Positions 1-49,289 of a stretch of 64,000 nt of DNA are shown piece after piece (within the stretch, counting starts at the first letter, position 1; the number at the start of each line of letters is the position of its first letter). This DNA is from a virus. The notes under the pieces are model-generated. The model was not told the DNA's origin. It searched no databases and saw only the letters and a program-made list of their open reading frames with translations. A program made the translations under genes and the position numbers. The stretch lies in IMG/VR virus record IMGVR_UViG_3300021507_000001, positions 5,105 to 69,104 of that record; one strand, 5' to 3'.

Positions 1-931
1 GCACGACAACATCCCAGGACTGCGCATGTAGACCAGTGCTGCCGCCTCGTCCGGCCCGGCCCGTGGCGTAGAATGTGTCACCGATGCGCTTGAGCCAACC
101 CAGCCGGAAGAAGGTATAGTTGTCCACTATGTCTGCTGGTATGATGGGCCAGACGCCCGACTTGCCGACAAGTGTGCCGTCAGCGTCTATGTCTACTATC
201 ATCGCTTTGGGAGAACCACCGTCGACAGAGTTAAAAATAACTACATCGTAGCTGCCGTCTTCAGAGGTGGCCGCGTCAAACCAGGTGACATTGCCGCTAT
301 ACATAAATTCCTTGTCGACAATGAAGCTTAGTAATGTCATGCGTGTTTCATAGCCGGTGCCGGTGCCAGACTCGCACTGGATGGTGAAACGATAGCTGTC
401 ACCGCCAACGATAGATACGGGGCCAAATACATAGTGCCTGCGTCCGTTCGGGGACGTGGCATCTGTCACCGCCAGAGACACTTTTTGCGGCCAGTACACA
501 GCGCTGCTGACCTTGGTGTTGGTGGCAGTATCTATGTCGTATCCGTATATGTAGTTATGCGTGCCGTCATCGTACATGTAGTAAACCTGGTTATTCACCA
601 GGGACATTCTTTGAATGTTGTAGCCACTGTGGCTACCCACAGAATACGAACCCGTGGTAGAAGCCAGCGTGTCGACATTTACTTTGAGCCAGCGTAGTCC
701 ATAAGGAACGTTGTTGTCTCGCCATACCTTGTAGATGTAGCCGTTGTAATAACATGAGTCCACTGCTGCGTAGGGGGCTACTCCGTAGGGCTGGCTCTGG
801 CTGTAGTTGGTTAGTGTGTACGAGTGCTTGAGTGTCCAGCGCGCTTGCACATCACGAAAGACGACGTGGGATACTGGTTTTGTATTCTGCGACACCATTG
901 CGGCTAACTGGTCTGGCGTTACGTTTCTCAT
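1..931 (-). CDS. tail protein (hub/baseplate-like), 3' truncated by window edge
   Basis: ATG at 931 overlaps the upstream stop (ATGA); frame MRNVTPDQLAAMVSQNTKPVSHVVFRD... appears to run off the window; follows TMP and Dit-like gene. Confidence 0.65.
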   Translation of the reverse strand, partial: MRNVTPDQLAAMVSQNTKPVSHVVFRDVQARWTLKHSYTLTNYSQSQPYGVAPYAAVDSCYYNGYIYKVWRDNNVPYGLRWLKVNVDTLASTTGSYSVGSHSGYNIQRMSLVNNQVYYMYDDGTHNYIYGYDIDTATNTKVSSAVYWPQKVSLAVTDATSPNGRRHYVFGPVSIVGGDSYRFTIQCESGTGTGYETRMTLLSFIVDKEFMYSGNVTWFDAATSEDGSYDVVIFNSVDGGSPKAMIVDIDADGTLVGKSGVWPIIPADIVDNYTFFRLGWLKRIGDTFYATGRAGRGGSTGLHAQSWDVVV

Positions 932-1335
932 ATGGCTGTCGTTTCCATCATTTTGAGTACTACGTAGCTAGGGCTGGTGGATAGGTCATAGCTTTGTAGC
1001 TGTGGCGTCAACTCCCCCACCAAGTACACGCTGTGTGAGCTGCCATCGATGTCAGTGAGCGTGATGATGTTGTTGGGTGTGCCATTGGGGTCGTCTAGCG
1101 TGAAGAGCGCTTTGAGATCCGCCAGTGTACCGTTGGGCGGTGTGGCGGTGGCAGGAGCTTTCAGCCGGTACATCCACGTCCTAGTCACCACGCCGATCTG
1201 GTTCACGAGCTTGCCGGTAATGGTCTGGCTGATCTTGTCCGACTTGATCATACTGGGCCGGTAGCCCTTCAGCGTGACCGTAAACCGGTATGCGTTGCCC
1301 ACGCTGTCTGTTAGCACGATATAGCTATTGCTCAC
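928..1335 (-). CDS. distal tail (Dit)-like protein
   Basis: 135 aa, beta-rich, directly after tape measure gene. Confidence 0.6.
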   Translation of the reverse strand: MSNSYIVLTDSVGNAYRFTVTLKGYRPSMIKSDKISQTITGKLVNQIGVVTRTWMYRLKAPATATPPNGTLADLKALFTLDDPNGTPNNIITLTDIDGSSHSVYLVGELTPQLQSYDLSTSPSYVVLKMMETTAI

Positions 1336-1342: not shown

Positions 1343-4300
1343 TCACCTCGGTCCTACGTGTACGGGTAGTTCTATGGGGTCTGGTGTGTAGTTCGCCATT
1401 TCTTTGCGCACCATGTCTTCTAATAGATGAGGAATGTTGTCGCGTATGAAGTTGATCCATTGCAGCATCCGCACGCTTTCCTCAAAAGCAAGCTGGCTCT
1501 GTGCGTCGGCCAGTGTGTTCATGACTCCCTGGTGCTTGATCGCTGCGTCCAAGCCTTCTTGGGCCAGGTCGCGCTGCTGAGCAGCTAGCCCAGCACTGAT
1601 ACCCGCCGCTTTGATGTTGAGGTCATGCTGTTCTGTGAATGCCCTCTTCTCTTCTGCCATCTGCGCCATCTGAAGAGAGTGGCTAGCCACGTAGTTGGCA
1701 AGCGATTGCGCGTGTTGCTTGTTTTGCAAGCTGGCGATGGCCTCGGTGTGTTTCTTCTGCTCGTTCAGGTGGTCTTTAGCGGTTTTGTGATCTTCGTCTT
1801 CCCACTTGCGCTTTTCGTCGCGGTGTTCTTTGCTAGTGGCAAAGTCTTCCTCGGCCCATTTCTGCTGCTGTTCTATTTGCTCGCGCCGTATGTCGAAGCG
1901 TTTGTCTTCTAGGTCCCAGATTTCTTCCTGGCGATCCTTGGCGGCAGACGCCTGGCCCTGTTCCATGTTGTAGAGTGTGGTGGTGCGCTCTTGTTGTGTT
2001 ATTAGCTGCTTACGCTGGCGGCCTGAGGCATACCGGATGTTCTCGGTGATGTCCTCTTGTTGCCAGCCGAACTGTAGCGCGCCGCGCTCCTCACCATAGG
2101 CCCAGCCGGCCCGCGTGCCAGCACGAGAGATTCCGGCCATTTCCTGGCTGATTTGTAGTCCTTGTATCTGCCAGCCGTACTGTACTCCCTGGCGTTCTTG
2201 CCCTTGCTCAATCGCGGTGTCTTCCCAGCCGCGCTGTGCCTGGGTGCGTTGCCAGTTGCGCTCTATGGCCTGACCCTGCCAGGCTTGCTGGGTGCGTTGC
2301 CAGCTCTGGTTTTCTCCCATCATGGCCCCTTGTAAGGCCCAGTTGCTCATGAATTGGCTCTGTTGTAGGGCCATCTGCTGCTCGCGCCACCCGAAGCGTC
2401 CCACATAACCATCAGGGGTACCAGGTTCGTCCCCCATGGTCTGCCGGTAGCTAAGTTGCAGGCGTTGCATTTGTATGCCTGCCTGGGCCATGGCTCCCTG
2501 GTAGGACAGGTCTATCCCCTGTTGGCGTAGACCAAATTGTATTTGCTGATAAGAGCGGCTCTCATCGCGCTGTCGTGTCTGGTAGAGGCGCTGCCGGTAC
2601 AGGGCCAGCATACGACCCGCAGACGTTGCCTGCATGGGCAGCTCGGCGGGCTTCATCGCGCCGAGCCCACTCTGGTCCATAGCCCAGGCCACGGTCTCTA
2701 TGTCGCCACTGGCGGCGGCGGTCAACAGATCGCCGAATCGGGTGCCCTCTTCCCCTATCCCCATCCTTCCCATTTTCTCGAACAGCGCGCCCGCTGCGCT
2801 ACGGCTCATGGCGGCGTGGGGGCCAAATGTGAGCGGTTGCATGTACTTGTTGGAAACTGTCATGCCTATGGCGGCCTGGGTAGGCGTAAGTCCATTCTCG
2901 CCACCGATTATGCCGTAGCCATGTTGTATGTCAGTCCCTCTACCACCAAAGGCAAGGGAAAGGTTGCCTAGTTGCTGGGCGTTCACGTCGCCACGCGCCA
3001 GTGCCTCAAGCATGGGGTCGGCAGCCATGGTGTTCAGGTTTGTCTCGTCTATGTAAGCCATGTACTGCCCTGCGCCAGAGAGGAACTGCTCTTCTCCCAG
3101 GTAGCCCAGTTTCTCGTTCAGTGCGCCGCCCTCGGCAATTTTGTTGGCATAGAAGCTGCGCATGGTGGCGGTGCGTTCTTGGATGTCCATACCAGACATC
3201 TTGCCGCTGGCAATCCGAGCCGCGAGCTGCTGAACACGCCCCGTGCGCGTGTCCGTGGCGAGCTGGGCGGGCGGAGTATATTCGTATTCAGGGGACATGT
3301 GTGTTGCCGCGCTTTGAAGTTGCCGCATGCGCTCATCGGGGCTCCCCCCCCCCATGGTTGCCTGCGCGGCTGTTCGCTCAAACCAGTTGGTGCTATTTAG
3401 CGCGGTCGCCGCAGTCAGGTCCGTGCGGTTTACTTCTTGTACGTAGTTCACCGCGCCGTAGAGTGCAGCGGCACCACCTACTGCCAGGCCGACAGGGCCT
3501 GCCGCTGCTAGCCCGCCCCATGCGGGTAGCCCGGCCCAACCAGCGACTATCCCAGATACAGCACCCAATCCAATTGGTATACCGGCCAAGCCCATCGCTC
3601 CGCCCATGGTGGGTGAGGTCATGGCACCCATGCCACCGCCATAGGCTTGGTAGGCAGTGCGTCCTACTGTGCCTCGATAGGCAGCTTGTCTGGCTTGGGT
3701 AGACAGCAGCCCGCGCGCCACAGTGCCCAGTGGAGCAGAAACGCCAGGCTGACCAGCCATGGCCGCCTGGGATGCTGCCATTTCCTGCTGCGCGGCTATG
3801 GGCATGTCTGCAATTGTGGCACCACCGGTGAGGCCCCAGATGCGGTTGAGTTGCATCAGGCTCCACCCGCTCATTAGTTTTGTCCCTATGCGGCCAGCAC
3901 CAGCCCAAGCTTGCCCAAGTATGCCGGGGCCACCCTCGGGGCCACCACCACCGTCCCCGGGGCCACCACCACCCATCATGCGCCGGGTTATCTCGGCCAC
4001 TCTCTCATTGCTTACTTGCGCGGTGGCCTGGGCAATTCCGGTATCTAGCCACGGAGCAATAACTTTGCTGAGTTTGCTGAGTGCCATGTCTGCTCGCTCA
4101 TTGCGCTTTTGCAGGGCGGCAATATCTTGTTCCTTTAGGCCCTCTTGCTGCAGGGCAAGGTTGGAAACAGACATTTCTCTCTTGAGTGTGTCACGCGCTG
4201 TTTTGAGCAGGCTAATATGCTTGAGCTGTTCCTCGGTCATGCCTTTGGTGGCGTCGTAGCCCTTAATTATGCCGCCAGTCCACTGCTCGATGGCTTTGAT

Positions 4301-7300
4301 TAGCTCACCAGCGGTTGCGCCGAGTTTGTTGAAGGTGACTAGCCCCTGCGCTGCTTGGGCGGAGGGATTGTTGCCGAGAAGTCCGGCCAGGCTAGCTAGC
4401 CCCTCTCCGACGCTATTAATTCCAGCGGAGCGGAGCTGATTCTCAATTGTCCCAGCGGTATTTCCGGCGGCTTTTACTCTGCGTGCTTCCCGCTGTGCTT
4501 TCGTTATCGGTGGTGGGGCATCGTGCCCCTCGTCTTGTAACGCTCGCTCGTACTCCGATGGTGGTGTTGTCAGGCCCGGATCGGGTATTCCACTTACTTC
4601 GCTTACTTCCACTGGTGATTCTTCTTGCGGTGGTGTTGCAAAATTGATTGGGGTAGCCGGAGGGGCCTCGGTGGATCGCTCGGCCGGGGCCGCCAGGTGT
4701 ACCCCAGAGGCCCGCGCCATATTTATGCCTAGGGGAACCTGGGGAAGATGTCCCGGCTCAGGCATTGCTAGTGGTTCGGTGACGGTGATTGGTTTCCGTG
4801 TCGCTTGCGGCCCGGGCGCGGCGACTGAATCTGACTTCTGTGTGGGCTGTTTCTCGGACGGAGTAGTCTGGGCCGCTTCTCGCGGGGGTTGTTTGGACGT
4901 GGCGGTCGAATCTGGCTCTTGCGTGGGCTGTTTCTCGGACGGAGCGGTTTGGGTTGCTTCTCGTGTGGGTTGTTCGGGTGCAGTAGCTGGGGCCGGTTTC
5001 TGTTTCTTGGCTAGGTTAATTTCGGCCTTAGGCAGAATATTGGGGCGTTCTTTGTCCTTGGGTTCTGTCCAAAAAGGCTCATAGTACTTCTCATCTTCTT
5101 CCCGGCGTTTCCGAATCACCATGTCTGCCCTGGCACGGGTGGCAGGAGAGACCGGCTGTTTGCTGTATTCCTTTTGAATGGCCCGATAAAGCGCGGCTTG
5201 TTCCTGAACCGCAACCTCTTGTTCTTTGGAGATGCCGGATCCCAACCACGACCGGGGGGTTTTGGGCCATTGTGTATTTTGTACCTTGCCCAAAAGTGTT
5301 TGCCCCATCGGGGTGCTAAGCATTGTGTCTAGCCAGTTCTCGCCAGAGAGCACTTTGCCAGGCGCGTACTCGAAGGCCAGGTTGGGATTGCGGCGTAGTG
5401 CTTCGCCATATTCTGCTACGGCTTGCTGGTTCTTGTCTGTGGCAAATAGCGAGGCAAGGTCGTTGGTGTCGAATACGTATTCGCCAGTTGCACCCTTGGC
5501 TTGCGTAAGTTCCCTGAAGACGTTTTTGAAGATGGTCATTACAGACGCGGGCCGCCCCTTGGAGTAGCGATATGTGAGCTTGCCGTTCTCGATGACGCGC
5601 TCACCATATCCCCTCTTGGCAGAGGCGGTAGCCAACATCTCCACGGCAGCAGCCAGGTGGGGATCGGGGATCGCCTTGCTGGCCTGGCGATATGAATATA
5701 CGTTCTGATGTAGCTCCTCGGCAACGGCTTGCTGCTGCTCGGTCTGGGTGCGCTGCCCAAGCTGTCGTTTCAATATGTTGTAATCTGAACCCGTTAGTCG
5801 TTTCAATAACAGCGCGGACTTGGATGCGTCGGCTAATTGCTCTTGAGAGAATTCGTTCAGGTTGTTGTACTTTTCTTGCACTTCTGCCGCAGAAAGAGGG
5901 AGGTCTAAGACCTCACTACCACGCCCACGCTTTCTCATCTCAAGTGCCATTCTTGTAATGTCGGTCACGGATGCTATTTGGGGCCTGTCTTTCATAAAGA
6001 ACTGGCCCGTGTCGGGGTTAGCCTGTAGCTTGCCAGTGAGAATAGCCATTGCGGGGTCTAGGTCGAAGTCACGGCCCAGTGCTTCTGCAAGAAGCGGGCT
6101 AACAATTGGCCCCATGGCCTGCTCGCCCTTGTACTGACTCATAAAGCGCACGGACAGCTTGCCGATTTCGAAGTCCCTGCCAGTGCCAGGATATCCTGTC
6201 ACGTAGGCCCCAATTTTCTCCTCGGACCCGCTCTGCATTTGTTTCAACAGCCGGTCCTTGTCTTCTTGTCTTGTCACGCCAAGTGCTTTGAAAATGAACT
6301 TGTCTGGCAAGTAAACTTCATTGGGTGCGATGCTAGAGTCAGCCCTAAAAATACCGCTAAATACGTTGGGGCTGTGCATGGCCCCGTGCAGCTGCTTGAT
6401 GGCCTTTGGGCTGGTGGCCATCTTTTGTTGTTCCCCAATAGCCAGGAGAGATGACTTGATTGCTCTACTGCGTATTTCTCTGTCTTTTGAGTCAACATTA
6501 GCAAAGTAGTCGTATGCGGCCTTTGCCATCTTGCTGCTGGTGCCACCAGCATGTAAAGCTCCCTGGCCTGACATCTGGTGTAGTATGGCCTGCGGAGACA
6601 TGAGTACTCCCGCCGCCCCCATGTATATTTGTTTGCCACCTATCTCTGACTCGGCGGCTACTTCCCAGAAGTTCTTGGCTAGGATATCTGCTGGGATGTA
6701 CTCCTCGCCCATTTCCTTTTTCCATGGCCCACCCACGGCGGCAGCTCTCTGGCGAGCGGTGTCCATGATGTTCTCGTATGTGGTGCGATCCTTCCCGCGA
6801 AAGTCTACCAGGTCAGGTCTTTCTAGCTTCGGGTCGGCGGTTCTGGCCGCTGCTTCTATGAGAGAGATCCGCGCAGCGTCCTGTGCGTCTGCTTGTGCGC
6901 GCAGCTGTGCGGCCCCCTCTGTATCATAGCGCGCCATTTCCCTGATCTGCTCGTCAGAGACGTAGTTCTTTTTTCCGGGGTAGCTGCGCATGGGAATCTT
7001 GAGCGAGAAATTTTCTGCGTCTATGCCACGCATGCGCCTTTGTATTAGTAGTTTCCCATCGCCAAGATCTAGGGGTTCTTGAGACGGGTCTATTACGTTT
7101 TCATATCTATACAGCTGGCTGGCAGGAATGACTGTGGGAACCAAAATCTCAGTCATGTCGCGAGGAAGAATTGTGTTGAAGAAATAGTCGGCGGCCCTTT
7201 GAGAGGTCTCGGCATTCCAGGATGCTTGTCTACCCAGTGTGGCAAGCTCTTCTTCTGTGGCGTCGGCTCCCCCAAGGCCAAGTGCCCTAGCGAATTCTGC

Positions 7301-8890
7301 CGGTCTGTTTGCAAAATAGTTTTGTGGTACGTTCTCGAGGTACTTTGCGGACACGAGGGCCTCGAAGCCCAACTCATCCAAAATTGGGTCGGGGTATAAT
7401 TGGTGGCGCGATGTACCACCCTTGTTCCCTGGTGATGTCTGCGCATTGTTTGCGTACAGCCTGAGTGTGGCGGTGAGGTAGTTTTTGTATTTGTCTCCTT
7501 CTTCACCAGCGACAAGGCCAATGTTCTCAAGCGTGACTTGACTTACCTTGCGGCCCAGTCCGAAATCTATAGGACTAAGCCCGCCAGCCAGTGATACGTC
7601 CCCTTGCTCCCACACGCTGCCAGGCCGTGCCAGCGACAGCTTTTCTATGTCTATGTCAGACGCAATCGGCACGCGCACGGTCTTGTATGTACTCATGCCC
7701 TTAATAAGGCCGGGCCGGACAGCCATTTGGCCCTTCTCGCCAGTTTCGCCAAAGACAACGAAGGCATGAACCCGCATACCGATGTCGTGCTGTCCCGCTT
7801 TACCAAGTCCTATTTCTTCTGGCTCTAGCAATGATTTTCCACTGGCGTCAACGGGAACCCAGCCCGCATTGGGGCGTATTGTGTTCCCCATCTGTTTCAT
7901 GGCCTTGGCGCCCATCACGGGGTCAGTAGGATCACCCTTAAACATCAGCCCACCACCAGGGCCATGTATGCCCTGGTAGTATTCCGTGAGAACGTCTATT
8001 GGGTATTGTGTGCGTCCAACCTGTATCCAGCCGGGCTTTACGATATCATTGCCGTATTTGTCGGTTTCTACTGGCTCGCCAATATTTCGCCGAAACTCAG
8101 CAGCTAGGTTGGTGGGGTTTATGGGCAGCAGCGGTCGTTGCCCGCGTTCTATTTCCTGTATTACACCCCGCGCCTCGTTTTGGGGTCTGTCGCCCAGACC
8201 CCATGCCTGCCAGGCTTGCGCGCGCTGCTTCTCAGTAAGCTCGCGTGCTTTGGGCAGGCTGCTCTCTATCAAGCCCTGCCAGTCACTTAGTCGGTTTGGG
8301 GGCAAAACTTCTTGCCAGGCCCCGTAATCCTCGGCGACTGTTTGTTGAGAGCTCCCGCCCAAAGCCTCGTTTATTAAGTCGCCCCGGTTCGAGGGGGCAT
8401 CTGATTGTTCACGCGAGTCGCGCGCCGCCTGGAAGTAGGGTTCAAGTCGTGAGCCATATAAGGTCTGGAGCTGCTCGGCTACATTGCTTGTGGGGATCCC
8501 CCCGAAACTGATGTAGCTTTGGTACATTTTGTCACGGAGCGTTGGGTCCAGCTCGCCAAGGTTGAGTGCTTTTACTCTCCCGAACCAGGGATCGGCGTGT
8601 AGCGCCTCTGGGCTACCAAAGGGCACTTCGTGTGGTGTTACCCCCTGGGAAGGAACTGGAGCACTAGGCACTCCACCGGGTTGCTTCGGCTGTGGTATAA
8701 CTGGTGGCTGTTTTACGCCCTTCGCCCGCCGAGATATAATCCGCGCCTTCCTGGCGGCGAGAATGTCTTGTACGACGCTTGCGTGTGTAGATACCCACTC
8801 TTGTTGTCTCAAGATACGCTCTTGATCCTCGCGCGTGGTGGCGGCAAGAGCCGCATTTATTTCGGCTGCTGAATAGTTACTTCTACCCAT
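1343..8890 (-). CDS. tape measure protein with N-terminal two-barrel RNA polymerase-like region
   Basis: Follows frameshifted tail chaperones; C-half has Gly/Ala hydrophobic segments and Gln/Trp coiled-coil repeats; N-half has RNAP-like motifs (SPLLAEALGRDFDLDPAMAI, PGNKGG); ATG 8890 with GGAGG upstream. Confidence 0.85.
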   Translation of the reverse strand: MGRSNYSAAEINAALAATTREDQERILRQQEWVSTHASVVQDILAARKARIISRRAKGVKQPPVIPQPKQPGGVPSAPVPSQGVTPHEVPFGSPEALHADPWFGRVKALNLGELDPTLRDKMYQSYISFGGIPTSNVAEQLQTLYGSRLEPYFQAARDSREQSDAPSNRGDLINEALGGSSQQTVAEDYGAWQEVLPPNRLSDWQGLIESSLPKARELTEKQRAQAWQAWGLGDRPQNEARGVIQEIERGQRPLLPINPTNLAAEFRRNIGEPVETDKYGNDIVKPGWIQVGRTQYPIDVLTEYYQGIHGPGGGLMFKGDPTDPVMGAKAMKQMGNTIRPNAGWVPVDASGKSLLEPEEIGLGKAGQHDIGMRVHAFVVFGETGEKGQMAVRPGLIKGMSTYKTVRVPIASDIDIEKLSLARPGSVWEQGDVSLAGGLSPIDFGLGRKVSQVTLENIGLVAGEEGDKYKNYLTATLRLYANNAQTSPGNKGGTSRHQLYPDPILDELGFEALVSAKYLENVPQNYFANRPAEFARALGLGGADATEEELATLGRQASWNAETSQRAADYFFNTILPRDMTEILVPTVIPASQLYRYENVIDPSQEPLDLGDGKLLIQRRMRGIDAENFSLKIPMRSYPGKKNYVSDEQIREMARYDTEGAAQLRAQADAQDAARISLIEAAARTADPKLERPDLVDFRGKDRTTYENIMDTARQRAAAVGGPWKKEMGEEYIPADILAKNFWEVAAESEIGGKQIYMGAAGVLMSPQAILHQMSGQGALHAGGTSSKMAKAAYDYFANVDSKDREIRSRAIKSSLLAIGEQQKMATSPKAIKQLHGAMHSPNVFSGIFRADSSIAPNEVYLPDKFIFKALGVTRQEDKDRLLKQMQSGSEEKIGAYVTGYPGTGRDFEIGKLSVRFMSQYKGEQAMGPIVSPLLAEALGRDFDLDPAMAILTGKLQANPDTGQFFMKDRPQIASVTDITRMALEMRKRGRGSEVLDLPLSAAEVQEKYNNLNEFSQEQLADASKSALLLKRLTGSDYNILKRQLGQRTQTEQQQAVAEELHQNVYSYRQASKAIPDPHLAAAVEMLATASAKRGYGERVIENGKLTYRYSKGRPASVMTIFKNVFRELTQAKGATGEYVFDTNDLASLFATDKNQQAVAEYGEALRRNPNLAFEYAPGKVLSGENWLDTMLSTPMGQTLLGKVQNTQWPKTPRSWLGSGISKEQEVAVQEQAALYRAIQKEYSKQPVSPATRARADMVIRKRREEDEKYYEPFWTEPKDKERPNILPKAEINLAKKQKPAPATAPEQPTREATQTAPSEKQPTQEPDSTATSKQPPREAAQTTPSEKQPTQKSDSVAAPGPQATRKPITVTEPLAMPEPGHLPQVPLGINMARASGVHLAAPAERSTEAPPATPINFATPPQEESPVEVSEVSGIPDPGLTTPPSEYERALQDEGHDAPPPITKAQREARRVKAAGNTAGTIENQLRSAGINSVGEGLASLAGLLGNNPSAQAAQGLVTFNKLGATAGELIKAIEQWTGGIIKGYDATKGMTEEQLKHISLLKTARDTLKREMSVSNLALQQEGLKEQDIAALQKRNERADMALSKLSKVIAPWLDTGIAQATAQVSNERVAEITRRMMGGGGPGDGGGGPEGGPGILGQAWAGAGRIGTKLMSGWSLMQLNRIWGLTGGATIADMPIAAQQEMAASQAAMAGQPGVSAPLGTVARGLLSTQARQAAYRGTVGRTAYQAYGGGMGAMTSPTMGGAMGLAGIPIGLGAVSGIVAGWAGLPAWGGLAAAGPVGLAVGGAAALYGAVNYVQEVNRTDLTAATALNSTNWFERTAAQATMGGGSPDERMRQLQSAATHMSPEYEYTPPAQLATDTRTGRVQQLAARIASGKMSGMDIQERTATMRSFYANKIAEGGALNEKLGYLGEEQFLSGAGQYMAYIDETNLNTMAADPMLEALARGDVNAQQLGNLSLAFGGRGTDIQHGYGIIGGENGLTPTQAAIGMTVSNKYMQPLTFGPHAAMSRSAAGALFEKMGRMGIGEEGTRFGDLLTAAASGDIETVAWAMDQSGLGAMKPAELPMQATSAGRMLALYRQRLYQTRQRDESRSYQQIQFGLRQQGIDLSYQGAMAQAGIQMQRLQLSYRQTMGDEPGTPDGYVGRFGWREQQMALQQSQFMSNWALQGAMMGENQSWQRTQQAWQGQAIERNWQRTQAQRGWEDTAIEQGQERQGVQYGWQIQGLQISQEMAGISRAGTRAGWAYGEERGALQFGWQQEDITENIRYASGRQRKQLITQQERTTTLYNMEQGQASAAKDRQEEIWDLEDKRFDIRREQIEQQQKWAEEDFATSKEHRDEKRKWEDEDHKTAKDHLNEQKKHTEAIASLQNKQHAQSLANYVASHSLQMAQMAEEKRAFTEQHDLNIKAAGISAGLAAQQRDLAQEGLDAAIKHQGVMNTLADAQSQLAFEESVRMLQWINFIRDNIPHLLEDMVRKEMANYTPDPIELPVHVGPR
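4842..4990 (-). repeat. 81-bp (27-aa) tandem duplication in Pro/Thr/Gln linker of TMP
   Basis: gtgggctgtttctcggacggag at 4842 and 4923; PSEKQPTQ twice. Confidence 0.85.
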
Positions 8891-9173
8891 AGTTCTTGCC
8901 TCCGCTGATCCGGGGGGCCTGCTGCTGTTGCTGTTTGGCGTTGACAGCACGAATGTACGCGACGTTGTCTAGCGCTGTCTGTACAGCGTCTAGGTCACGC
9001 ATGAATGCCTCTGGCTGGTCAGCCCACCCACCACCAAGAGGAAGGCCATAGCGCTCTACTTTCTTGTACATGGTATAGGTGTCTGGCTCCTCTCCCTCAC
9101 CAGAGAGCAAGTAGTTTGTTATTTCCTTGGCGATCTCCTCATCGCGGCGCGCACGCGCGCCTCTTAAAAAGGG
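8883..9173 (-). CDS. tail assembly chaperone, -1 frameshift extension (gpGT-like)
   Basis: -1 frame continues from slippery site; LPLGGGWADQP motif; ends at TMP start. Confidence 0.75.
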   Translation of the reverse strand, partial: PFLRGARARRDEEIAKEITNYLLSGEGEEPDTYTMYKKVERYGLPLGGGWADQPEAFMRDLDAVQTALDNVAYIRAVNAKQQQQQAPRISGGKNYG

Positions 9174-9586
9174 ATGCGCCACTCTGGTACAACATCGCAT
9201 ACCTGGTTGTGCCAGTCGTACACGATGGAGAGAGGCATTTTCTCTATCTTGTCCATGAAGCTGCGCATTGTCTCGTCCTCGCGCGGCTCGAAGGTGATCT
9301 TGTCCCACTCAGAGACCTCGCCTTCCTCATTCCACTTCTTGGGTATCTCCACCACGAGATTGGTGTCTTGATAGGTAAGCCAGATTTCATTGGCAAAGAG
9401 GTAGGCCAAATTGGCCTCGAGGCTAGTTGATACTCTTTCGCTGCTAACGTTGATACTGCGACCCTTGCCGGCGATGGCAGCGCGCGCAATTGCCGTACTG
9501 TAACTGGGTGGCTTGATTAATACCCAGGTGTCTTCGACGCTAGCGAGTTCCCGTTTCTGCGGCAGAAAATCTGCAATCTTAACCAT
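9164..9586 (-). CDS. tail assembly chaperone (gpG-like)
   Basis: Between tail tube and TMP; AGGAG RBS; ends ATC CCT TTT TAA. Confidence 0.75.
   Translation of the reverse strand: MVKIADFLPQKRELASVEDTWVLIKPPSYSTAIARAAIAGKGRSINVSSERVSTSLEANLAYLFANEIWLTYQDTNLVVEIPKKWNEEGEVSEWDKITFEPREDETMRSFMDKIEKMPLSIVYDWHNQVCDVVPEWRIPF
9167..9173 (-). other. -1 programmed frameshift slippery heptamer C CCT TTT
   Basis: X XXY YYZ pattern in correct phase just before chaperone stop. Confidence 0.8.
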
Positions 9587-9603
9587 AGTGTCTCCTTTGT
9601 GAG

Positions 9604-9633
9604 GACGGGGAGGGAGATGTCGCCCTCCCCGTC
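9604..9633 (-). terminator. GC-rich hairpin after tail tube gene
   Basis: GACGGGGAGGG...CCCTCCCCGTC inverted repeat; no clear U-tract. Confidence 0.5.
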
Positions 9634-9644
9634 TGTAGGCCCGT

Positions 9645-10679
9645 CTAGTAAGTCGTGGCCTGGTTGTCCAGAAGCAATTGTATGTAGTCGCTCCCAGCCA
9701 GGACCTGCGCCGTGCCAGTGTATTGCTGAACAATCATTTGCCCACCAGCCAGCATCGGGGGGCCTTGCGCTCCCCAGCTAACGGATGGGGCCGTGATCTC
9801 TAACCGGTAGGGAACGGTCTGCCCGGGGATGTTGTTCGGACTTTGGATTACAACGTCCATGGCGGTCTTGTGAACCACCGGACTCCATTCTGTGCCACCG
9901 TTTGCATAAATGGAGGCGTAGAGAGCTGGGTCATCCCATTTGTGCGTCCAGGTAAAGCTCAGCACCTGCTGCAACAGTACCATGTCGTCGGGGTACGGGC
10001 TGTTGATAACGGCCTCGTCTTGCGGGGTGGAGTAGGCATTAACCAAGTCAATGCTTAGGTTCACGGCGTTGTATGGAGTCCCTCCCAGCGTTAGTGTGTT
10101 ACCGGCAACTGCCGCCAGGGGAACGGAGGTTTCGTCTTCGTAGGCGTTGTCGTATGTCCAGCCGCTGGGGTCCTGATTGGGTAGAGGAATCCGTCCAGCA
10201 AAGTCGAAGTTAGCCACCAGGAGCTGGTGTGCGGCAAAGATTAGCCGCATACGCGAAACGCGCACGTCGTTGATTTGCTCTCCCTTGTCATCGTGACCCA
10301 CACCGCTGGGGATCATGGCCCGAATGCCCAGCCAGGGCATGTCCATGGCGTCCGCAGGTGTGGTAAACACATGACGAAGAACGCCGGCCTCGGGACAGTC
10401 TGCTGTCACCGAGTGTACTCCGACGGCTGCTTCTAGCAAGTGACCAATGACATTCTCTAGCCGAGGCAAGAGGGTCACTGTGCCCGCGCCGAAAGCTCCG
10501 TCTTTGTATGCGCCGGTCGGGTGGTAGTCACCACCCACTTCGGGGGGAATCTGCTGCACTTGCTGGGCAGTACCAATACCGCCCTGTAGTATCTTGTGAC
10601 GATACCACGTGGTTGCAGCAGACCCCTTTGCTGTCTGGGGGCCAAAACTGAAGACCCCCTTACTTGAAAGTACGCTCAT
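9645..10679 (-). CDS. major tail tube protein
   Basis: MSVLSSKGVFSFGPQTAKGSAAT start and ...LLLDNQATTY end typical of tube proteins; position. Confidence 0.75.
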   Translation of the reverse strand: MSVLSSKGVFSFGPQTAKGSAATTWYRHKILQGGIGTAQQVQQIPPEVGGDYHPTGAYKDGAFGAGTVTLLPRLENVIGHLLEAAVGVHSVTADCPEAGVLRHVFTTPADAMDMPWLGIRAMIPSGVGHDDKGEQINDVRVSRMRLIFAAHQLLVANFDFAGRIPLPNQDPSGWTYDNAYEDETSVPLAAVAGNTLTLGGTPYNAVNLSIDLVNAYSTPQDEAVINSPYPDDMVLLQQVLSFTWTHKWDDPALYASIYANGGTEWSPVVHKTAMDVVIQSPNNIPGQTVPYRLEITAPSVSWGAQGPPMLAGGQMIVQQYTGTAQVLAGSDYIQLLLDNQATTY

Positions 10680-11728
10680 TTGTTTCTCCTCATCGTCTGA
10701 TATGCTCGGTACCACTGTCGCCAGCCATCGGCAATGTTGTGGTGTTTCCGAGCGTCTTTGTATCCTTCGCGTTGGAGCTTCTGCCGCAATCTCCGGTTTT
10801 CTAGGAGTTTTTCTATAGCAGATTCCCAACAGTCTTCCGTGTGCCTCACTAATAATCCATTGTGGTTGTTCTGAACAACTCCTCCATACGTGGTTCCCTG
10901 GGTAGCAATTACTGCTGCTCCACCGGGTACTTTGCCGACTAGCCGCTCAGCTGACCATGACTCGATGGCCTTGATAGCACTCTTGGACTTATTGAAGTAG
11001 TCATCGGGGTCAACTGCGCATAGCACTATATCGGCTTGACGCATCAAAGAGGGGTATTGTACATAGGGCACTGGCGGTATGTATGTGGCCTCTTGTAGGT
11101 AGTCGGGCTGATACCCGCCTACCAGCAAGCGAACGTCGCTGTGCCGTTTTGCAACCCTCAGAGCAGCCGTGGCCGCCGGTAGCCAGTCGTCGTAGTGTGT
11201 AGTGGTTCCGACCAGCATGATAGTCGTCTCCTCATACATCTTCTCTGTCTGCCGTGCAACCTTGGAAAATATCTCAAACTCAATGTGATTCTCTAACACC
11301 ATACAGGGTGTGTCGCTGATTAGCTTAACCATTCTCGCCAGGGCTTTGGTGGAAACGGTGGCGTAATCACACATTCTTGCCATTTCTTCCATGCTCACCG
11401 GCGAAATCTCTCGGTAGTGGTTTGAGTAGTCGTCATCTGTCTCAAACACGATCTGTGCCCCGGTCGTGGCTCGTAAGTCGTCGATCATGTCACCGGTCTT
11501 GCCGATGTAGCGGGGTAAGACGATAATGTCTTGTCCCATAACGAGCCGTGTGTCGGCTAGCGCATCGGCGATGGGCATCCACTTACACACCATGTCTTTG
11601 GTGTTGGTGTTGATGTGTGAAAAAGGTGATGTAACCCGATATATGTCTACAGCAGAGGGTTCTGTTTTATCTCCGCTGTTGAGAAGGGCTAAGACCTTTA
11701 TGGTTTTAGGGTAAGTACTTGCACCCAC
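10676..11728 (-). CDS. glycosyltransferase (GT-B fold)
   Basis: VFETDDD, ATVSTKAL, FNKSKSAIKAIES, HNGLLV motifs. Confidence 0.8.
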   Translation of the reverse strand: MGASTYPKTIKVLALLNSGDKTEPSAVDIYRVTSPFSHINTNTKDMVCKWMPIADALADTRLVMGQDIIVLPRYIGKTGDMIDDLRATTGAQIVFETDDDYSNHYREISPVSMEEMARMCDYATVSTKALARMVKLISDTPCMVLENHIEFEIFSKVARQTEKMYEETTIMLVGTTTHYDDWLPAATAALRVAKRHSDVRLLVGGYQPDYLQEATYIPPVPYVQYPSLMRQADIVLCAVDPDDYFNKSKSAIKAIESWSAERLVGKVPGGAAVIATQGTTYGGVVQNNHNGLLVRHTEDCWESAIEKLLENRRLRQKLQREGYKDARKHHNIADGWRQWYRAYQTMRRNK

Positions 11729-12336: not shown

Positions 12337-12992
12337 CGGCGCGCTCCCATGCGGCGGTATTGTTCCTGTGGGTGTTGCTGGCAAATGGTGTGGTAGCGTT
12401 TCAGGAAGTACTGCGAAAGTCTTAGCTGGGGGTTGTCCTCCGGATTACCAGAATCGCGTTTCTTTTTGTAGTTGCCCAGCAAAGCCTGCTGAGCATAAGA
12501 CGGTGCCAGCACAGATGCGGCCACGTAGCATTTCACGGCTTCGTAGGCCCAGTCTGGGATGTCGATGACTGAGTTGTCGTCCTCTACACGGTTGTAGTAG
12601 GCTATGTAAAAAAGTTTGAAGGTTGTGCCCGACCTGGGGGCAGCGTAGAGGTTTATGGTTCCGGTGGGCCAGACTGCGTAGGTATTTGTTGAATCCTCGG
12701 CGGCCCCGGGCTGGTAATCGAGTTCACGCAGCCAGGTTTTTCCGTCTGTCCAACGGATACCAAAGACGCCTCGATCGCGCCCTTCTACTACGTTGGAGGG
12801 AAGGGGCCACTCCGTGGTGGTCCCATCCCCCACAACGTCGCTCACAGAAACAACCCCGGCATAAGAGGAGGCTAAAGCAACCAGGGCGTCATTGACTGCC
12901 CAAAGCAGCTGATCCTCATCATATTTCGAGTACAGGGGGTCCTTGAGGAACCCACCGCTTATTTGTTGTTTCAGTGTGAGCCATGTTATCAT
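12333..12992 (-). CDS. head-tail adaptor protein
   Basis: Follows MCP; LLWAVNDA, INLYAAP, IDIPDWAYEAVKCYVAA adaptor-like motifs. Confidence 0.7.
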   Translation of the reverse strand: MITWLTLKQQISGGFLKDPLYSKYDEDQLLWAVNDALVALASSYAGVVSVSDVVGDGTTTEWPLPSNVVEGRDRGVFGIRWTDGKTWLRELDYQPGAAEDSTNTYAVWPTGTINLYAAPRSGTTFKLFYIAYYNRVEDDNSVIDIPDWAYEAVKCYVAASVLAPSYAQQALLGNYKKKRDSGNPEDNPQLRLSQYFLKRYHTICQQHPQEQYRRMGARR

Positions 12993-14335
12993 TAGAGTGT
13001 TACGACCTTGTTGTGACCAGGCGCCACGTAGGAGCCAGCGAAGAAGTAGACCTCGAAGCGTTCAGTAAACATCTGCTGATACTTCAGGAAGGCGTCCCAG
13101 GCAAAACGGTATACGCTTAGCGTGTCGTCGTAGGCGGGGGGCACGTAGGTCTGCGGCGGCTGTGTAACACCACACACGACCGCGCGCGGCCCCTTGAGGA
13201 AGATCGCGGCATGGACGGGGCGCGCCAGGGTGATATACCCGTAGACGCCACCACCCAAGTCGGTCTGGAAGTCGGTGGAGCTGATCGGTTTGTCGAAGGT
13301 GATGGTTCCACCATCAACAGAAATGACGCGCCGCTCCAAGTTCACGGGGTCATTCCAAACCGGACCGTCCTTGGTGGCGCGGGTACCGTTAGCAGCAGCA
13401 CGAGTTGTGTGGAGGGTTACGTAATCCCCCGGAGCCAGCACGCCAGTAACATCAGTGTAGGAAACACCATGAGTGGCAGCAAACTGGCCCACGTGCCAGA
13501 CCCCGTCAACCTTGGTGGTCTCAGGATCGGGCGCACCAGCACCCTCGGCAATCGAGGCGTCGATGGTGGCTTGTTTGATGATCTCGCCAACATTCCAAAG
13601 GGTCAGGATGTTACTCTGCGCAAAGCGCACGCCCTCGTAGGTGCCAACTTCGTAGTTGAGCAAGCGAGCAGGTTCTGCGTACTGGTGGCGGCTGATCCAT
13701 TCACCGGTCCCCAGTGTCTGGCTCTTCAGCTCGTAGGTCGCAGCGGGAGAGGTCAAGCAGAAGATGTCTTGCTCTTCAGCGTCTGAATAGGCCGCGCCCA
13801 ACTGGATCGAGCGCGCCACACCTTCCTCGAAGGTGTCAGACGCCTTGAGTGCATAGAAGCCAGCCTTGTCATTACTGAAGCTAGCAAAGTGTCCGCCAAT
13901 GTAGGCGTTTCGGGCTAGCCGGTCCAGCGAGAGTACCATGTGTGGCCCCAAGAGGTTGTTCATGATTGCTCGCAAACCAGCACGACCATTCTGAATCCAG
14001 GAGGTGATGTAGTCATCGTATTTCATGAGCATGACTTTGTCACCATAACGTTTCGTCTCGATGTCAATGCTGCGGCTATCCACGTACAGGGACGGGACTT
14101 GCAGCGCATACACGTCTAGCTCGGCGATGTTCGGTTCCGGCTCGATGAGCTGGGTGAATGTCATTTTCTTGGTGCGCGCAGCACCAAGATCAACCTTGTA
14201 GTCAACAAGCCCATAAAAAATGGACCGCTTGACGTAGTTGCTCAATAGCTCGGGAACAAACACGGTGTGGCTGTTCTGATCTAATGAGGCCCATGGGGTT
14301 GTACCATAGGGGGTATCCCAAGTTCCAGCTGCCAT
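12992..14335 (-). CDS. major capsid protein (HK97 fold, with insertion domain)
   Basis: After scaffold; EVGTYEGVRF, YGDKV motifs; 447 aa. Confidence 0.8.
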   Translation of the reverse strand: MAAGTWDTPYGTTPWASLDQNSHTVFVPELLSNYVKRSIFYGLVDYKVDLGAARTKKMTFTQLIEPEPNIAELDVYALQVPSLYVDSRSIDIETKRYGDKVMLMKYDDYITSWIQNGRAGLRAIMNNLLGPHMVLSLDRLARNAYIGGHFASFSNDKAGFYALKASDTFEEGVARSIQLGAAYSDAEEQDIFCLTSPAATYELKSQTLGTGEWISRHQYAEPARLLNYEVGTYEGVRFAQSNILTLWNVGEIIKQATIDASIAEGAGAPDPETTKVDGVWHVGQFAATHGVSYTDVTGVLAPGDYVTLHTTRAAANGTRATKDGPVWNDPVNLERRVISVDGGTITFDKPISSTDFQTDLGGGVYGYITLARPVHAAIFLKGPRAVVCGVTQPPQTYVPPAYDDTLSVYRFAWDAFLKYQQMFTERFEVYFFAGSYVAPGHNKVVTL

Positions 14336-14356: not shown

Positions 14357-15028
14357 TTATTTGTGTAAGTCGCTCCATTGGGTGCTTAGCTGGCTGTATA
14401 GCGTCCAGTCTTTGGCGGCGGCGGCCTGCTCGAGCTTCCGCTCGAGGCTTTTCACGTCACCGTCACCAGACCCAGTGGCCGAAGGAAAGGCGGGTCGCAT
14501 GCCCTTGATTTTCTCTTGGACATGGGTCTCCGCTCGCTTTTGTACCAATTCTTGAATTGTGCTGAGCTTGGCACGCAGTTCTTCTATCGTGGCGGCTTGG
14601 GGCATTGCGCCCTGGGCCATTAAGCCGCTGAGGTCCGGGAACTCGGTGGCAACCAGATTGGCTACTCCCGCTTCTCGCTTGGCCTCGGCCTCGGCCCGTT
14701 TGCGTGCCTCGTTTTCTGCAATCAGGGCGGCAATTTGCGCCTGCATTCCCGTTAGGGCATTGTCCTGAGCTCCCGCTTCCTCTTCATGCTTGAGAGTTAG
14801 CGCTTGGGCAGCTGCCTGTGCGTCTGCCGCTAGTTGCTTGGCCGCCGCCAGTTCCTTGAGCAGTTCTGTAACTTTTAGGTCGCTGCCAGCCTGTGCTTTC
14901 TTGGCATTGGCGAGCTGCCGTCGCAGTTCTGCTACTTGATCCTGACTATTGTCTTGCTGACCACCCTCATGACCAGTGTCCACCACCGTGGTGTTGGGCG
15001 TGCTGTTCGATTGTGTGTTCTCACTCAT
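14357..15028 (-). CDS. scaffolding protein
   Basis: Ala/Glu/Gln coiled coil between portal and MCP. Confidence 0.7.
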   Translation of the reverse strand: MSENTQSNSTPNTTVVDTGHEGGQQDNSQDQVAELRRQLANAKKAQAGSDLKVTELLKELAAAKQLAADAQAAAQALTLKHEEEAGAQDNALTGMQAQIAALIAENEARKRAEAEAKREAGVANLVATEFPDLSGLMAQGAMPQAATIEELRAKLSTIQELVQKRAETHVQEKIKGMRPAFPSATGSGDGDVKSLERKLEQAAAAKDWTLYSQLSTQWSDLHK

Positions 15029-16554
15029 TGCTCTGTGTCTCCTTTAGTATTAACGCGCGGCTCTGTGGGCCGCACTGCTTGCGCCTGCTCGCCGTCGCTG
15101 CCAGCCCCCCCGAAAGGGTTTTCTGTCTGTTTGCCGAGCGAGGCTTTCCACTCCAAATGTTTCTTGATTAACTCCAAAGCGGTCTTGACGTCTCGCACGT
15201 CTTGCATAGCCACCAAGGCTTGCTCTGGGGTAATTAGCCCGTTGTTCAGCCGCAATATGATGCGGTTTAGTTCTGACTCGGAATCGCGGGGTAGGATGGG
15301 GGCCCATTCCGGCCAGATGCGTAATCCTTGTATTTCTGCGTGTGTAACTCCTTCTATGCCCTTGGCCGCACACAGCCGTAATATGCGATGGCTGAGTTCG
15401 GATAGTCCTTTGCTCCAATGTGTTCTTTCTGCGTTGATGTGTTTGATCAGTGGTATCATGCGCAACGCCAGGGTTAGTGCGCTGCGCTGTGATCCCTCGT
15501 CTTGTCCATATACGATAGGTGGTGTACTTGCTTCGGTGCGCGCCAGTGTCAAGAGATCGGATGCCCACTGGGTCGCCGCTGTGGTTACTCCACTGTGGCT
15601 AGGAAAGTACATGCGAGGTTCGTCTTGACCTGGTTGCGTGGAACCAAGATCACCAATGAGAACGCCGTTCCCCAGGTCTCGTACTGCGGGATTGCGGCAG
15701 TTCGATACCCAGGGTATCTGCCGGGCGTCGTCTGCAATCTTGTCGCCTATGTCTGCGTAGCGCTCGTTGACGCCCTCTGCCAAGCCACGCATGTTGTGAA
15801 AGAGCGATCTGCCGTAAAAGCCGCCATCTCTGATGTGAGGAATGTAGGTAAATGGGATACACCCTAAGGGGGGTGGCCCCTGTCCTTCCCACTCCACCGA
15901 CTTGCCATCTATGGTGATCTCGGCACTGTCGCTCGTCCACTCTGCTCTAAATAGTACATTGCCTCTGGCGTCTAGTATACCATACCTTTGTTGTGCCTCC
16001 ACTGCATCCATGTAGTACTGGATGATGACGCGCAGAAGTTTGTAGTGTTCTCCGGTGGAGTAGTAGGGAAAGAAGTATTCTGTCCCCGGGCTGTCAATAG
16101 CTATGGGTAGCTTGCCTTCTTGTTTGCGGGTGGGGTCGTAACGTTCACCAAATACGACTCCTCCTAATACCTGCGCTACCAAGCCTCCTTCCTGCTCTAG
16201 CTCGCGAGCGTCATTCTCATATAGAATGCGGTTGAGTATGCTGGTTAGTTTCTGGGTGGTACCAGCGTTTTCTTCGCCACTACCCCATTTCTCTACTGTC
16301 ATGGGTACCATGGCGGGGGCCGAGTCGGTTACTTCACCAAAGAGGAAGCCTACGTGTAGCATGGCCGCCAGCCTGATGGGGTTTAGCTTGAGGGGGTAGA
16401 CTAACGTTTCGTTGTCAGCCATTTTCTCGTCTAGCCATACTCCCTCGAAGTGCTCTATGTATTCCAGGTACGCGCTGTGCTGCCGCGCCCACTCTCTAGA
16501 GAATGGGGTGTTGTCTAACGGCAATGGCGTCCCTATGATGTCGTTGTAGCGCAT
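15025..16554 (-). CDS. portal protein (SPP1-like)
   Basis: 509 aa after terminase; IPFTYIPH..FYGRS, SALTLALRMIPL, EWAPILPRD. Confidence 0.85.
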   Translation of the reverse strand: MRYNDIIGTPLPLDNTPFSREWARQHSAYLEYIEHFEGVWLDEKMADNETLVYPLKLNPIRLAAMLHVGFLFGEVTDSAPAMVPMTVEKWGSGEENAGTTQKLTSILNRILYENDARELEQEGGLVAQVLGGVVFGERYDPTRKQEGKLPIAIDSPGTEYFFPYYSTGEHYKLLRVIIQYYMDAVEAQQRYGILDARGNVLFRAEWTSDSAEITIDGKSVEWEGQGPPPLGCIPFTYIPHIRDGGFYGRSLFHNMRGLAEGVNERYADIGDKIADDARQIPWVSNCRNPAVRDLGNGVLIGDLGSTQPGQDEPRMYFPSHSGVTTAATQWASDLLTLARTEASTPPIVYGQDEGSQRSALTLALRMIPLIKHINAERTHWSKGLSELSHRILRLCAAKGIEGVTHAEIQGLRIWPEWAPILPRDSESELNRIILRLNNGLITPEQALVAMQDVRDVKTALELIKKHLEWKASLGKQTENPFGGAGSDGEQAQAVRPTEPRVNTKGDTEQ

Positions 16555-18547: not shown

Positions 18548-18548
18548 T

Positions 18549-19704: not shown

Positions 19705-19728
19705 GCCTCCCCCTGTGCGTTTGCTTTG

Positions 19729-49287: not shown

Positions 49288-49289
49288 CT

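What the first reader, a model, noticed from the sequence alone, without database searches (positions are those of the whole stretch)
5000..8890. Two-barrel RNA polymerase fused to the N-terminus of the tape measure protein (candidate tail-delivered virion RNAP)
Seen: the first ~1,300 aa are globular, not TMP-like, and carry RNAP-like motifs in the right order. Beta-like barrel: GMRVHAFVVFGETGEKGQMAVRPG (~7710-7780, cf. [23 protein letters not shown]), SLARPGSVWEQGDVSLAG (cf. GIVYIGAEVTGGDILVG), LRLY...PGNKGG (7415-7432, cf. PGDK...GNKG). Beta'-like barrel: FSGIFRADSSIAPNEVYLP (cf. [20 protein letters not shown]), VTGYP (cf. LNRAP), VSPLLAEALGRDFDLDPAMAI (DFDLD at 6056-6070, cf. [20 protein letters not shown]). 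Known: crAss-like phi14:2 virion RNAP uses DFDID, and Thermus phage P23-45 has an RNAP fused to its TMP, so there is precedent but it is rare. Inference: a divergent single-chain RNAP is packed with the tail and injected to transcribe early genes in a different phage lineage.
Basis: partly seen in the sequence, partly recalled or inferred. Interest (0 to 1): 0.95.

Follow-up and report, generated by a model that had tools for sequence, protein, structure and literature searches.

The report
RNA polymerase fused to tape measure
The giant tail "ruler" protein of this uncultured long-tailed phage begins with a very diverged one-chain copy of the cell-type RNA polymerase core, so the phage probably injects its own transcription enzyme with its DNA, an arrangement published so far only for unrelated Thermus phages.

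Summary
One ORF (window 1343-8950, minus strand, 2535 aa; likely ATG start at 8890) lies in the tape-measure position of a siphovirus-type structural module.

The exhaustive search found four true relatives and a locus scan a fifth. In all six sequences the three Asp of DFDLD (aa 961-965) are invariant, as are the Pro of the "LP" and "xP" motifs upstream and a Lys in "GNKG". Three of the six are fused to a tape-measure part in the same gene order.

No sequence profile (Pfam, PHROGs, PDB) detects the domain, and similarity to P23-45 gp96 is not significant. I read it as a new, rare family of tape-measure-fused two-barrel virion RNA polymerase. Activity and packaging are inferred, not shown. Earlier notes of this scan report similar fusions on other genomes; none shares sequence with this one.

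The parts
1343..8890 (-). Giant gene: RNA-polymerase module + linker + tape-measure part. The ORF is open from GTG 8950 (2535 aa); the likely start is ATG 8890 (2515 aa).
7331..7864 (-). Beta-like module, aa ~363-540. First half of the candidate second barrel (G391, G407 invariant), a flap-like beta insertion, and the GNKG stretch with invariant K510 and K536.
   Evidence: The second half (aa 505-539) is modelled at pLDDT under 50.
6383..7330 (-). Mostly helical connector between the two barrels, aa ~541-856. Part of it, aa 681-860, has pLDDT 58-88.
5969..6382 (-). Beta'-like double-psi beta-barrel, aa 857-994, with invariant P882 (LP) and P921 (xP).
6056..6070 (-). DFDLD, aa 961-965: candidate metal-binding catalytic loop. 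All three Asp are invariant in 6 of 6 family members.
   Evidence: hhalign places it on DFDGD of gp96 and of E. coli beta'.
5171..5968 (-). Helical C-terminal part of the conserved module, aa 995-1260, with family motifs Y-N-x-L-E/K and Q-T/A-P/S-K. Position expected for bridge helix and trigger loop; not established.
4451..5083 (-). Pro/Ser/Thr/Gln-rich linker, aa ~1290-1500, with an imperfect internal repeat.
1346..4450 (-). Tape-measure part, aa ~1501-2535. Gly/Ala-rich region with two hydrophobic segments (aa 1782-1840, window 3431-3607) and a Gln/Trp-rich C-terminal third.
   Evidence: homologous C-terminal parts in P0003 and P0007
8883..9733 (-). Two overlapping small ORFs (9164-9733 and 8883-9308) in the place of the tail assembly chaperone pair.
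   Evidence: position only, no family match
9645..10829 (-). Tail tube protein.
   Evidence: PF18906 E 5e-6 (26.7 bits, just under the 27-bit cut-off) and phrog_290 E 6e-12

Best explanation
The first ~1260 residues of the tape measure protein are a very diverged single-chain two-barrel RNA polymerase of the same fold class as cellular beta/beta'. A beta-like module (aa ~363-540) is followed by a helical connector and a beta'-like double-psi beta-barrel (aa 857-994). The loop DFDLD of that barrel would hold the catalytic Mg2+. A flexible Pro/Ser/Thr/Gln-rich linker joins this module to an ordinary tape-measure part with hydrophobic segments.

Inferred mechanism:
- The protein is built into the tail lumen like any tape measure protein.
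- It is expelled into the cell envelope at infection.
- The polymerase end then meets the entering DNA and transcribes the first genes without the host enzyme, as shown for P23-45 gp96.

Shown here: the gene position, the family, the invariant motifs, and the fold matches of two low-confidence models.
Inferred: activity, packaging, template and target genes.
For: Locus
- The gene order is TerL 16925-18547, portal 15025-16554, major head protein 12992-14335, glycosyltransferase, tail tube 9645-10829, two small overlapping ORFs, then the giant ORF.
- The order head protein - glycosyltransferase - tube - giant ORF recurs in L002. In L003 only the tube - giant ORF step was identified.

Family
- Exhaustive phmmer over 1.84 billion representatives gave 5 hits, 4 of them true. 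An IMG/VR locus gave a fifth relative.
- D961/D963/D965 are invariant in 6 of 6 (DFDLD, DFDED, DFDED, DFDGD, DFDAD, DVDGD). P882, P921, K510, K536, G391 and G407 are invariant too.
- Members P0002 and P0006 read RAPS at the xP motif, where E. coli beta' reads RAPT. P0004 reads DFDGDQ, as beta' does.

Beta'-like barrel (model of aa 830-1260)
- All 50 listed Foldseek PDB rows are RNA polymerase entries, in the chain usually naming the largest subunit. The best is 7s00_d, E 2.9e-3, prob 1.00.
- Viral RNA polymerase large subunits lead the BFVD list.

Beta-like module (model of aa 261-1260)
- 47 of 49 listed Foldseek rows are chain B or C of multisubunit RNA polymerase entries.
- The Foldseek-independent search also puts such chains first.
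- The flap-like match falls between the two beta-like motifs, where the flap is inserted in beta.

Profile comparisons
- The single hhalign hit against the gp96 family and against E. coli beta' superposes the DxDxD loops in both cases.

C-terminal part
- The nearest named Atlas clusters are all tape measure proteins, score 0.89.
- Hydrophobic segments lie at aa 1782-1840.

Precedent
- PMC10770324, sections 6, 7, 9 and 13.
Against: - Both models are poor: mean pLDDT 51.8 with pTM 0.29, and 55.7 with pTM 0.42. They rest on only 6 aligned sequences. The metal loop and the second half of the beta-like barrel have pLDDT under 50.
- No sequence method sees a polymerase:
  - Pfam and PHROGs gave 0 families for the whole protein.
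  - PF00623, PF00562 and PF05183 found nothing in the record even at E 10.
  - Neither the single sequence nor the family profile hit any polymerase in the PDB.
  - The hhalign hits are not significant (prob 0.4-2.3%, E 0.02-0.16), and the one against E. coli beta is irrelevant.
- AlphaFold may have been steered to a polymerase barrel by the DFDxD motif itself.
- The tape-measure identity of the C-terminal part has no profile support.
- The barrel interface, bridge helix and trigger loop were not established.
- No experiment of any kind bears on activity or packaging.
Confidence: 0.75

Rival explanations
1. The module derives from a two-barrel polymerase but no longer makes RNA. It would serve as a DNA-binding, plug or ejection domain of the tape measure protein.
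For: No activity data exist. The central Gly of the canonical DFDGD is Leu here and Glu or Ala in three relatives. No sequence profile recognises the module.
Against: All three Asp are invariant across 6 sequences that share only ~20-25% identity, and so are the flanking Pro motifs and K510. That is the pattern expected of a working active site.
Confidence: 0.1
2. The barrel belongs to a non-polymerase double-psi beta-barrel family, for example a barwin/expansin/RlpA-like cell-wall-degrading domain of the kind tail proteins often carry. The DxDxD would then be coincidental.
Confidence: 0.04
3. No polymerase at all. The motif resemblances are chance in a long protein, the models are AlphaFold artefacts, and the N-terminal half is an unknown family-specific domain.
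Against: Two independently modelled segments each retrieve one specific polymerase subunit class, in the correct order: 47 of 49, 50 of 50 and 50 of 50 rows. The search that does not use Foldseek gives the same answer. The only hhalign hit against two different polymerase queries lands on the catalytic loop both times. The motif residues are the invariant ones.
Confidence: 0.07
4. A true two-barrel polymerase with another job: an RNA-dependent polymerase like QDE-1, a primase-like starter of replication, or a PolD-like DNA polymerase.
Against: Cellular-type and phage DNA-dependent enzymes score higher. The only characterised tape-measure fusion is a DNA-dependent transcriptase (PMC10770324, sections 7-9). 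No PolD row was listed; that absence is not evidence.
Confidence: 0.04

Closest known systems
Thermus phage P23-45 gp96 (also P74-26, G20c, TSP4 and the 'stolb' isolates): virion RNA polymerase fused to the N-terminus of the tape measure protein (PMC10770324; PDB 8h2m, 8h2n)
   Same: - One ORF in the tape-measure position, with a two-barrel polymerase module of ~1200 aa at the N-terminus and the tape-measure part behind it.
- Neither gp96 nor this protein is recognised by standard polymerase profiles beyond the DxDxD region (paper section 6).
   Different: - No significant sequence similarity: no hit; hhalign prob 2.3%.
- The rest of the phage is unrelated. Head protein, tube and tape-measure part show no BLASTP similarity, and TerL only E 0.002.
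- 2535 aa here against 5002 aa there.
- DFDLD at aa 961 here against DFDGD at 779.
- A ~320-aa helical connector separates the barrels here, where gp96 has a short disordered one (paper section 11).
- No metallopeptidase domain was found.
- No gp64-like second polymerase was seen in the 69-kb record, which is 81% complete.
Cellular multisubunit RNA polymerase, beta and beta' (E. coli rpoB/rpoC)
   Same: The best structural matches of both modules are these subunits. The motifs LP, xP and DFDxD are collinear with beta' 368-464, and the GNKG Lys with beta.
   Different: Single chain with beta-like before beta'-like. The Pfam models for both barrels find nothing. About 1260 aa in place of about 2750.
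Other single-chain two-barrel polymerases of phages and eukaryotes: crAss-like phi14:2 gp66 (virion), SPbeta YonO, QDE-1 / RDR2
   Different: PF05183 finds nothing. gp66 is part of a large virion protein of a podovirus-like phage, not a tape measure protein (paper section 13). YonO is not a virion protein (recalled).
N4 virion RNA polymerase
   Same: Functional analogy only: a polymerase carried in the virion and injected to transcribe early genes (paper section 13 mentions N4-related fusions).
   Different: T7-like right-hand fold, not two-barrel (recalled). Carried in the capsid of a short-tailed phage.

Membership tests
Two-barrel (double-psi beta-barrel) RNA polymerases | Beta'-type double-psi barrel carrying a conserved DxDxD metal-binding loop | tested here: met
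Two-barrel (double-psi beta-barrel) RNA polymerases | Second, beta-type barrel with conserved basic residues, placed N-terminal to the first in single-chain forms | tested here: inconclusive
Two-barrel (double-psi beta-barrel) RNA polymerases | Bridge helix and trigger loop after the DxDxD barrel | tested here: inconclusive
   Long helices follow the barrel (model 2: H192-204, H207-236, H242-260), and there are conserved family motifs. No structural match covered them.
Two-barrel (double-psi beta-barrel) RNA polymerases | Recognition by curated sequence models (PF00623, PF00562, PF05183) | tested here: not met
   0 Pfam families at E 1. No match in the whole record at E 10, while 14 of 14 control genomes ring for PF00623 and PF00562. 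Section 6 of PMC10770324 reports the same lack of detectable similarity for the proven enzyme gp96.
Two-barrel (double-psi beta-barrel) RNA polymerases | Template-dependent RNA synthesis abolished by Asp mutations | not testable with these tools
   Needs protein expression and an in vitro assay.
P23-45 gp96 family (Oshimavirus tape-measure-fused virion polymerase) | Detectable sequence homology to gp96 residues 1-1200 | tested here: not met
   tblastn of gp96(1-1200) in 50,697 phage records finds only 10 Thermus phage records. The window protein finds none. hhalign family against family: prob 2.3%, E 0.02.
P23-45 gp96 family (Oshimavirus tape-measure-fused virion polymerase) | Polymerase module and tape-measure part in one ORF at the tape-measure locus | tested here: met
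   the same holds in L002 and L003
P23-45 gp96 family (Oshimavirus tape-measure-fused virion polymerase) | Companion non-virion polymerase (gp64-like) encoded by the same phage | tested here: inconclusive
   A DxDxD scan of all ORFs of 150 aa or more in the 69,104-b record found only the giant ORF, a 1330-aa downstream tail ORF and a 152-aa ORF. The record is 81% complete, and a motif scan is not a homology search.
Tail tape measure proteins | Gene between the tail tube / chaperone genes and the distal tail genes; length in proportion to a long tail | tested here: met
Tail tape measure proteins | Match to a curated tape-measure model (Pfam or PHROGs) | tested here: not met
   0 families and no tblastn hit in the phage records. 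Only lead-level support exists: Atlas neighbours carry PF20155 or PF10145 at score 0.89, and there are hydrophobic segments at aa 1782-1840.

The most novel reading that the evidence does not exclude
This is a second family of tape-measure-fused, tail-delivered two-barrel RNA polymerases, unrelated in sequence to the first. It occurs in 50-70-kb siphovirus-type phages that share no detectable structural-protein similarity with Oshimavirus. In this record it may be the phage's only polymerase, and a ~1145-aa form also exists that is probably stand-alone. Fusion of a transcriptase to the tail ruler would then have arisen more than once, or be far older and more widespread than one Thermus phage group. 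That would make 'inject your polymerase through the tail' a general siphovirus strategy.
Probability: 0.6. Interest if true: 0.8.

Novelty: new variant of a known kind. Interest (0 to 1): 0.7.

Why it matters
- **Precedent.** Only one phage group (P23-45 and relatives) has a published tape measure protein that doubles as an injected RNA polymerase. My two searches of the paper library for tape measure together with virion RNA polymerase, double-psi or two-barrel turned up no other case.
- **What a second family would show.** A sequence-unrelated family in a different phage lineage would mean the arrangement is not a thermophile oddity.
- **Structure.** It would give a smaller polymerase with a long connector for comparison. 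That bears on how a ~140-kDa enzyme is stored in, and passes through, a tail tube.
- **Annotation.** It would flag a class of enzymes that current annotation pipelines miss entirely.
- **Host range of strategies.** It would also mark these phages as potentially independent of host transcription at the start of infection.

Tried and rejected
Sequence searches that found nothing useful
- Pfam and PHROGs on the whole protein.
- phmmer and the family profile against PDB sequences.
- tblastn of either half against 50,697 phage records.
- All three word-seeded homologue searches. These did not even return the known relatives, probably because low-complexity words filled the 8000-candidate limit, so they say little.
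- Locus scans with A4 in viral contigs and with A3 in genome contigs found nothing. A3 in viral contigs only re-found L002.
- One exhaustive-search hit, P0005, is a His-tagged designed repeat protein. I dropped it as spurious.

Profile comparisons
- hhalign against gp96, the gp96 family and E. coli beta' gave only non-significant hits.
- hhalign against E. coli beta gave an irrelevant one.

Structural lists
- P23-45 gp96 did not appear among the listed rows for the 1000-residue model.
- No PolD row was listed in any search.
- Neither absence is evidence.

Ideas considered and not supported
- That the 13-bp palindrome TTCTGCSGCAGAA is tied to this polymerase family. It has 23 copies in the window but none in L002 or L003.
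- That the phage is a distant Oshimavirus.

A sigma-70 consensus scan of 18500-26000 found 3 sites against 2.9 expected, all on the minus strand. With the host unknown, this decides nothing.

Not possible
- Supplementary Data 3 and 4 of PMC10770324 (alignments of 23 polymerase families and a survey of viral genomes), because supplements are closed. They may already contain this family, which would lower the novelty.
- Coordinates of the models, and hence the geometry of the Asp residues.
Full report
**What is there**

The window is bases 5105-69104 of a 69,104-base IMG/VR virus record estimated to be 81% complete. On the minus strand a standard structural module runs from the large terminase down to the tail:
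- large terminase, 16925-18547;
- portal, 15025-16554;
- major head protein, 12992-14335;
- a glycosyltransferase, 10676-11728;
- the tail tube protein, 9645-10829;
- two small overlapping ORFs in the place of the tail chaperone pair, 9164-9733 and 8883-9308.

The next gene is a single ORF, 1343-8950, of 2535 codons. Its likely start is the ATG at 8890. That ATG has GGAGG 8 nt upstream and overlaps the TAG of the preceding ORF. I number residues from the GTG at 8950, as in P0001.

**Check of the observation**

For example PGNKGG is at 7415-7432 and DFDLD at 6056-6070. DFDLD is the only DxDxD in the protein. The E. coli beta and beta' strings used for comparison are genuine and in the same order.

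**Relatives**

The protein has no Pfam or PHROG family, no relative among PDB sequences and none among 50,697 phage records.

An exhaustive phmmer of aa 330-1320 against 1.84 billion representatives found five proteins. One is a His-tagged designed repeat protein, which I dropped. The other four are P0002 (1530 aa), P0003 (2314 aa), P0004 (1145 aa) and P0006 (1149 aa). A pattern scan of IMG/VR added a 2606-aa ORF, P0007. The metagenome scan recovered the locus that encodes a 2314-aa ORF of the P0003 cluster.

P0003 and P0007 carry a tape-measure-like C-terminal half homologous to the one here. In L002 the giant ORF follows head protein, glycosyltransferase and tube protein as it does here. In L003 only the tube protein before it was identified. 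P0004 has three identical-length members on contigs of 18.6-19.7 kb, so it is probably a complete protein without a tape-measure part. P0002 and P0006 are on contigs of 5.0 and 4.3 kb and may be cut. The family is therefore real but rare, and the fusion is conserved in 3 of 6 members.

**Conservation**

At about 20-25% identity only 35 of 1000 columns are invariant in the six-sequence alignment. They include:
- D961, D963 and D965;
- P882 of the 'LP' motif;
- P921 of the 'xP' motif;
- K510 in the GNKG stretch;
- K536, G391 and G407.

The loop reads DFDLD, DFDED, DFDED, DFDGD, DFDAD and DVDGD in the six members. Two members read RAPS where E. coli beta' reads RAPT. One reads DFDGDQ exactly as beta' does. 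The spacing P882-P921-D961 (39 and 40 residues) is similar to that of the corresponding residues of beta' (59 and 33).

**Structure**

Only six sequences were available, and both AlphaFold2 models are poor.

The model of aa 261-1260 has mean pLDDT 51.8 and pTM 0.29. Its confident parts are a beta-rich stretch (aa ~420-505) and a helical stretch (aa ~680-860).
- Foldseek against the PDB gave no significant E-value (best 0.1). Even so, 47 of the 49 listed rows are chain B or C of multisubunit RNA polymerase entries, which is the second-largest subunit by the usual naming.
- This flap-like piece lies between the 'GMRVH...' and 'GNKG' motifs. That is where the flap is inserted in the beta barrel.

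The model of aa 830-1260 has mean pLDDT 55.7 and pTM 0.42, with aa ~863-987 at 60-77.
- All 50 listed Foldseek rows are RNA polymerase entries in the chain of the largest subunit. They include phage AR9 and PhiKZ non-virion polymerases, cyanobacterial gamma, plastid, bacterial beta', ASFV and poxvirus enzymes. The best has E 2.9e-3 and probability 1.00.
- The viral library gives the same picture.

**Sequence-profile tests**

These are negative or non-significant, and I report them as such.
- The Pfam models of both barrels and of the QDE-1 family find nothing in the record at E 10.
- The family profile finds no polymerase in the PDB.
- hhalign gives a single hit against the gp96 family (107 columns, E 0.02, probability 2.3%) and a single hit against E. 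coli beta' (25 columns, E 0.033, probability 1.5%). In both, the one hit superposes the DxDxD loops.
- The paper on gp96 states that this proven enzyme is likewise undetectable by sequence outside the DxDxD region (PMC10770324, section 6).

**The rest of the protein**

Aa ~1290-1500 is a Pro/Ser/Thr/Gln-rich linker. The C-terminal ~1035 residues have two hydrophobic segments (aa 1782-1840), a Gly/Ala-rich region and a Gln/Trp-rich end. Their nearest named clusters in the protein atlas are all tape measure proteins, at a lead-level score of 0.89. No curated tape-measure model matches, so that identity rests mainly on gene position and on the conserved gene order in the relatives.

**Mechanism**

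By analogy with P23-45, the protein would occupy the tail lumen and be expelled into the envelope at infection. Its polymerase end would then transcribe the first genes of the entering DNA. In P23-45 the polymerase is present in virions as part of full-length gp96 and transcribes pre-early genes (PMC10770324, sections 7-9, 13). None of this is shown here.

No second polymerase candidate was seen in a DxDxD scan of the record, so this enzyme may act alone or hand over to the host enzyme. Whether they are its promoters is untested.

**Comparison and novelty**

This family shares no significant sequence similarity with gp96. The rest of the phage is unrelated to Oshimavirus apart from a weak terminase match. 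The protein is half as long, it has a long helical connector where gp96 has a short disordered one, and no metallopeptidase domain was found.

Two library searches found no other paper that links tape measure proteins with two-barrel polymerases. The supplementary survey of PMC10770324, which I could not open, might list this family.

Earlier notes of this scan report similar fusions on at least seven other genomes. None resembles this one in sequence, and I did not test those notes.

I rate this a new variant of a known kind.

Noticed in passing
window 49213-51204: A phage-encoded Ro60 orthologue (TROVE E 1e-39 plus Ro60 vWA E 3e-38) lies directly downstream of a tRNA-Ala(cgc) gene. Earlier scan notes propose Y-RNA-like genes here; I did not test that.
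   Followed up: partly
window 5882-60666 (23 sites, one inside the polymerase module at 5882-5894): The 13-bp palindrome TTCTGCSGCAGAA occurs 23 times against 0 expected from shuffles. It is absent from the related phage loci L002 and L003, so it is not tied to the polymerase family.
   Followed up: partly
window 20082-20106, 20428-20452, 20455-20472, 22378-22395: Repeated hairpin-forming elements lie in the divergent region between the structural genes and the plus-strand genes: a 25-nt element twice at 96% identity and an 18-nt palindrome twice at 100%. They are candidate regulatory sites for the earliest transcripts.
   Followed up: partly
window 10676-11728; L002 4789-5853: A GT-B type glycosyltransferase (phrog_7162) sits between the head and tail-tube genes, and it is conserved at the same place in the related phage L002.
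   Followed up: no
window 1-967 and 3022 bases upstream (L008): A 1330-aa stop-to-stop ORF lies downstream of the tape measure gene on the minus strand, presumably a distal tail or host-recognition protein. It holds DIDAD and DDDTD strings.
   Followed up: no
P0001 aa ~140-175 and family columns 89-133 of A2: The family profile gives a weak match (E 0.32) to the UBA domain of RAD23 in the N-terminal region ahead of the polymerase module. It is probably chance.
   Followed up: no
window 54339-55337, 38417-39763, 59016-61160: The phage encodes RecA (E 5e-69), a DnaB-like helicase, and a 714-aa protein with a weak Peptidase_C39-like match.
   Followed up: no
window 19729-19756, minus strand: A near-consensus sigma-70-type promoter (TGGACA, 16 nt, TG-TATAAT; 11 of 12). 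No such site lies on the plus strand in 18500-26000.
   Followed up: no
protein P0005 (library of representatives): A His-tagged, six-fold repeated designed protein is present in the metagenome-derived protein library and scored E 3e-7 against the query. It is a reminder that such hits need reading.
   Followed up: yes
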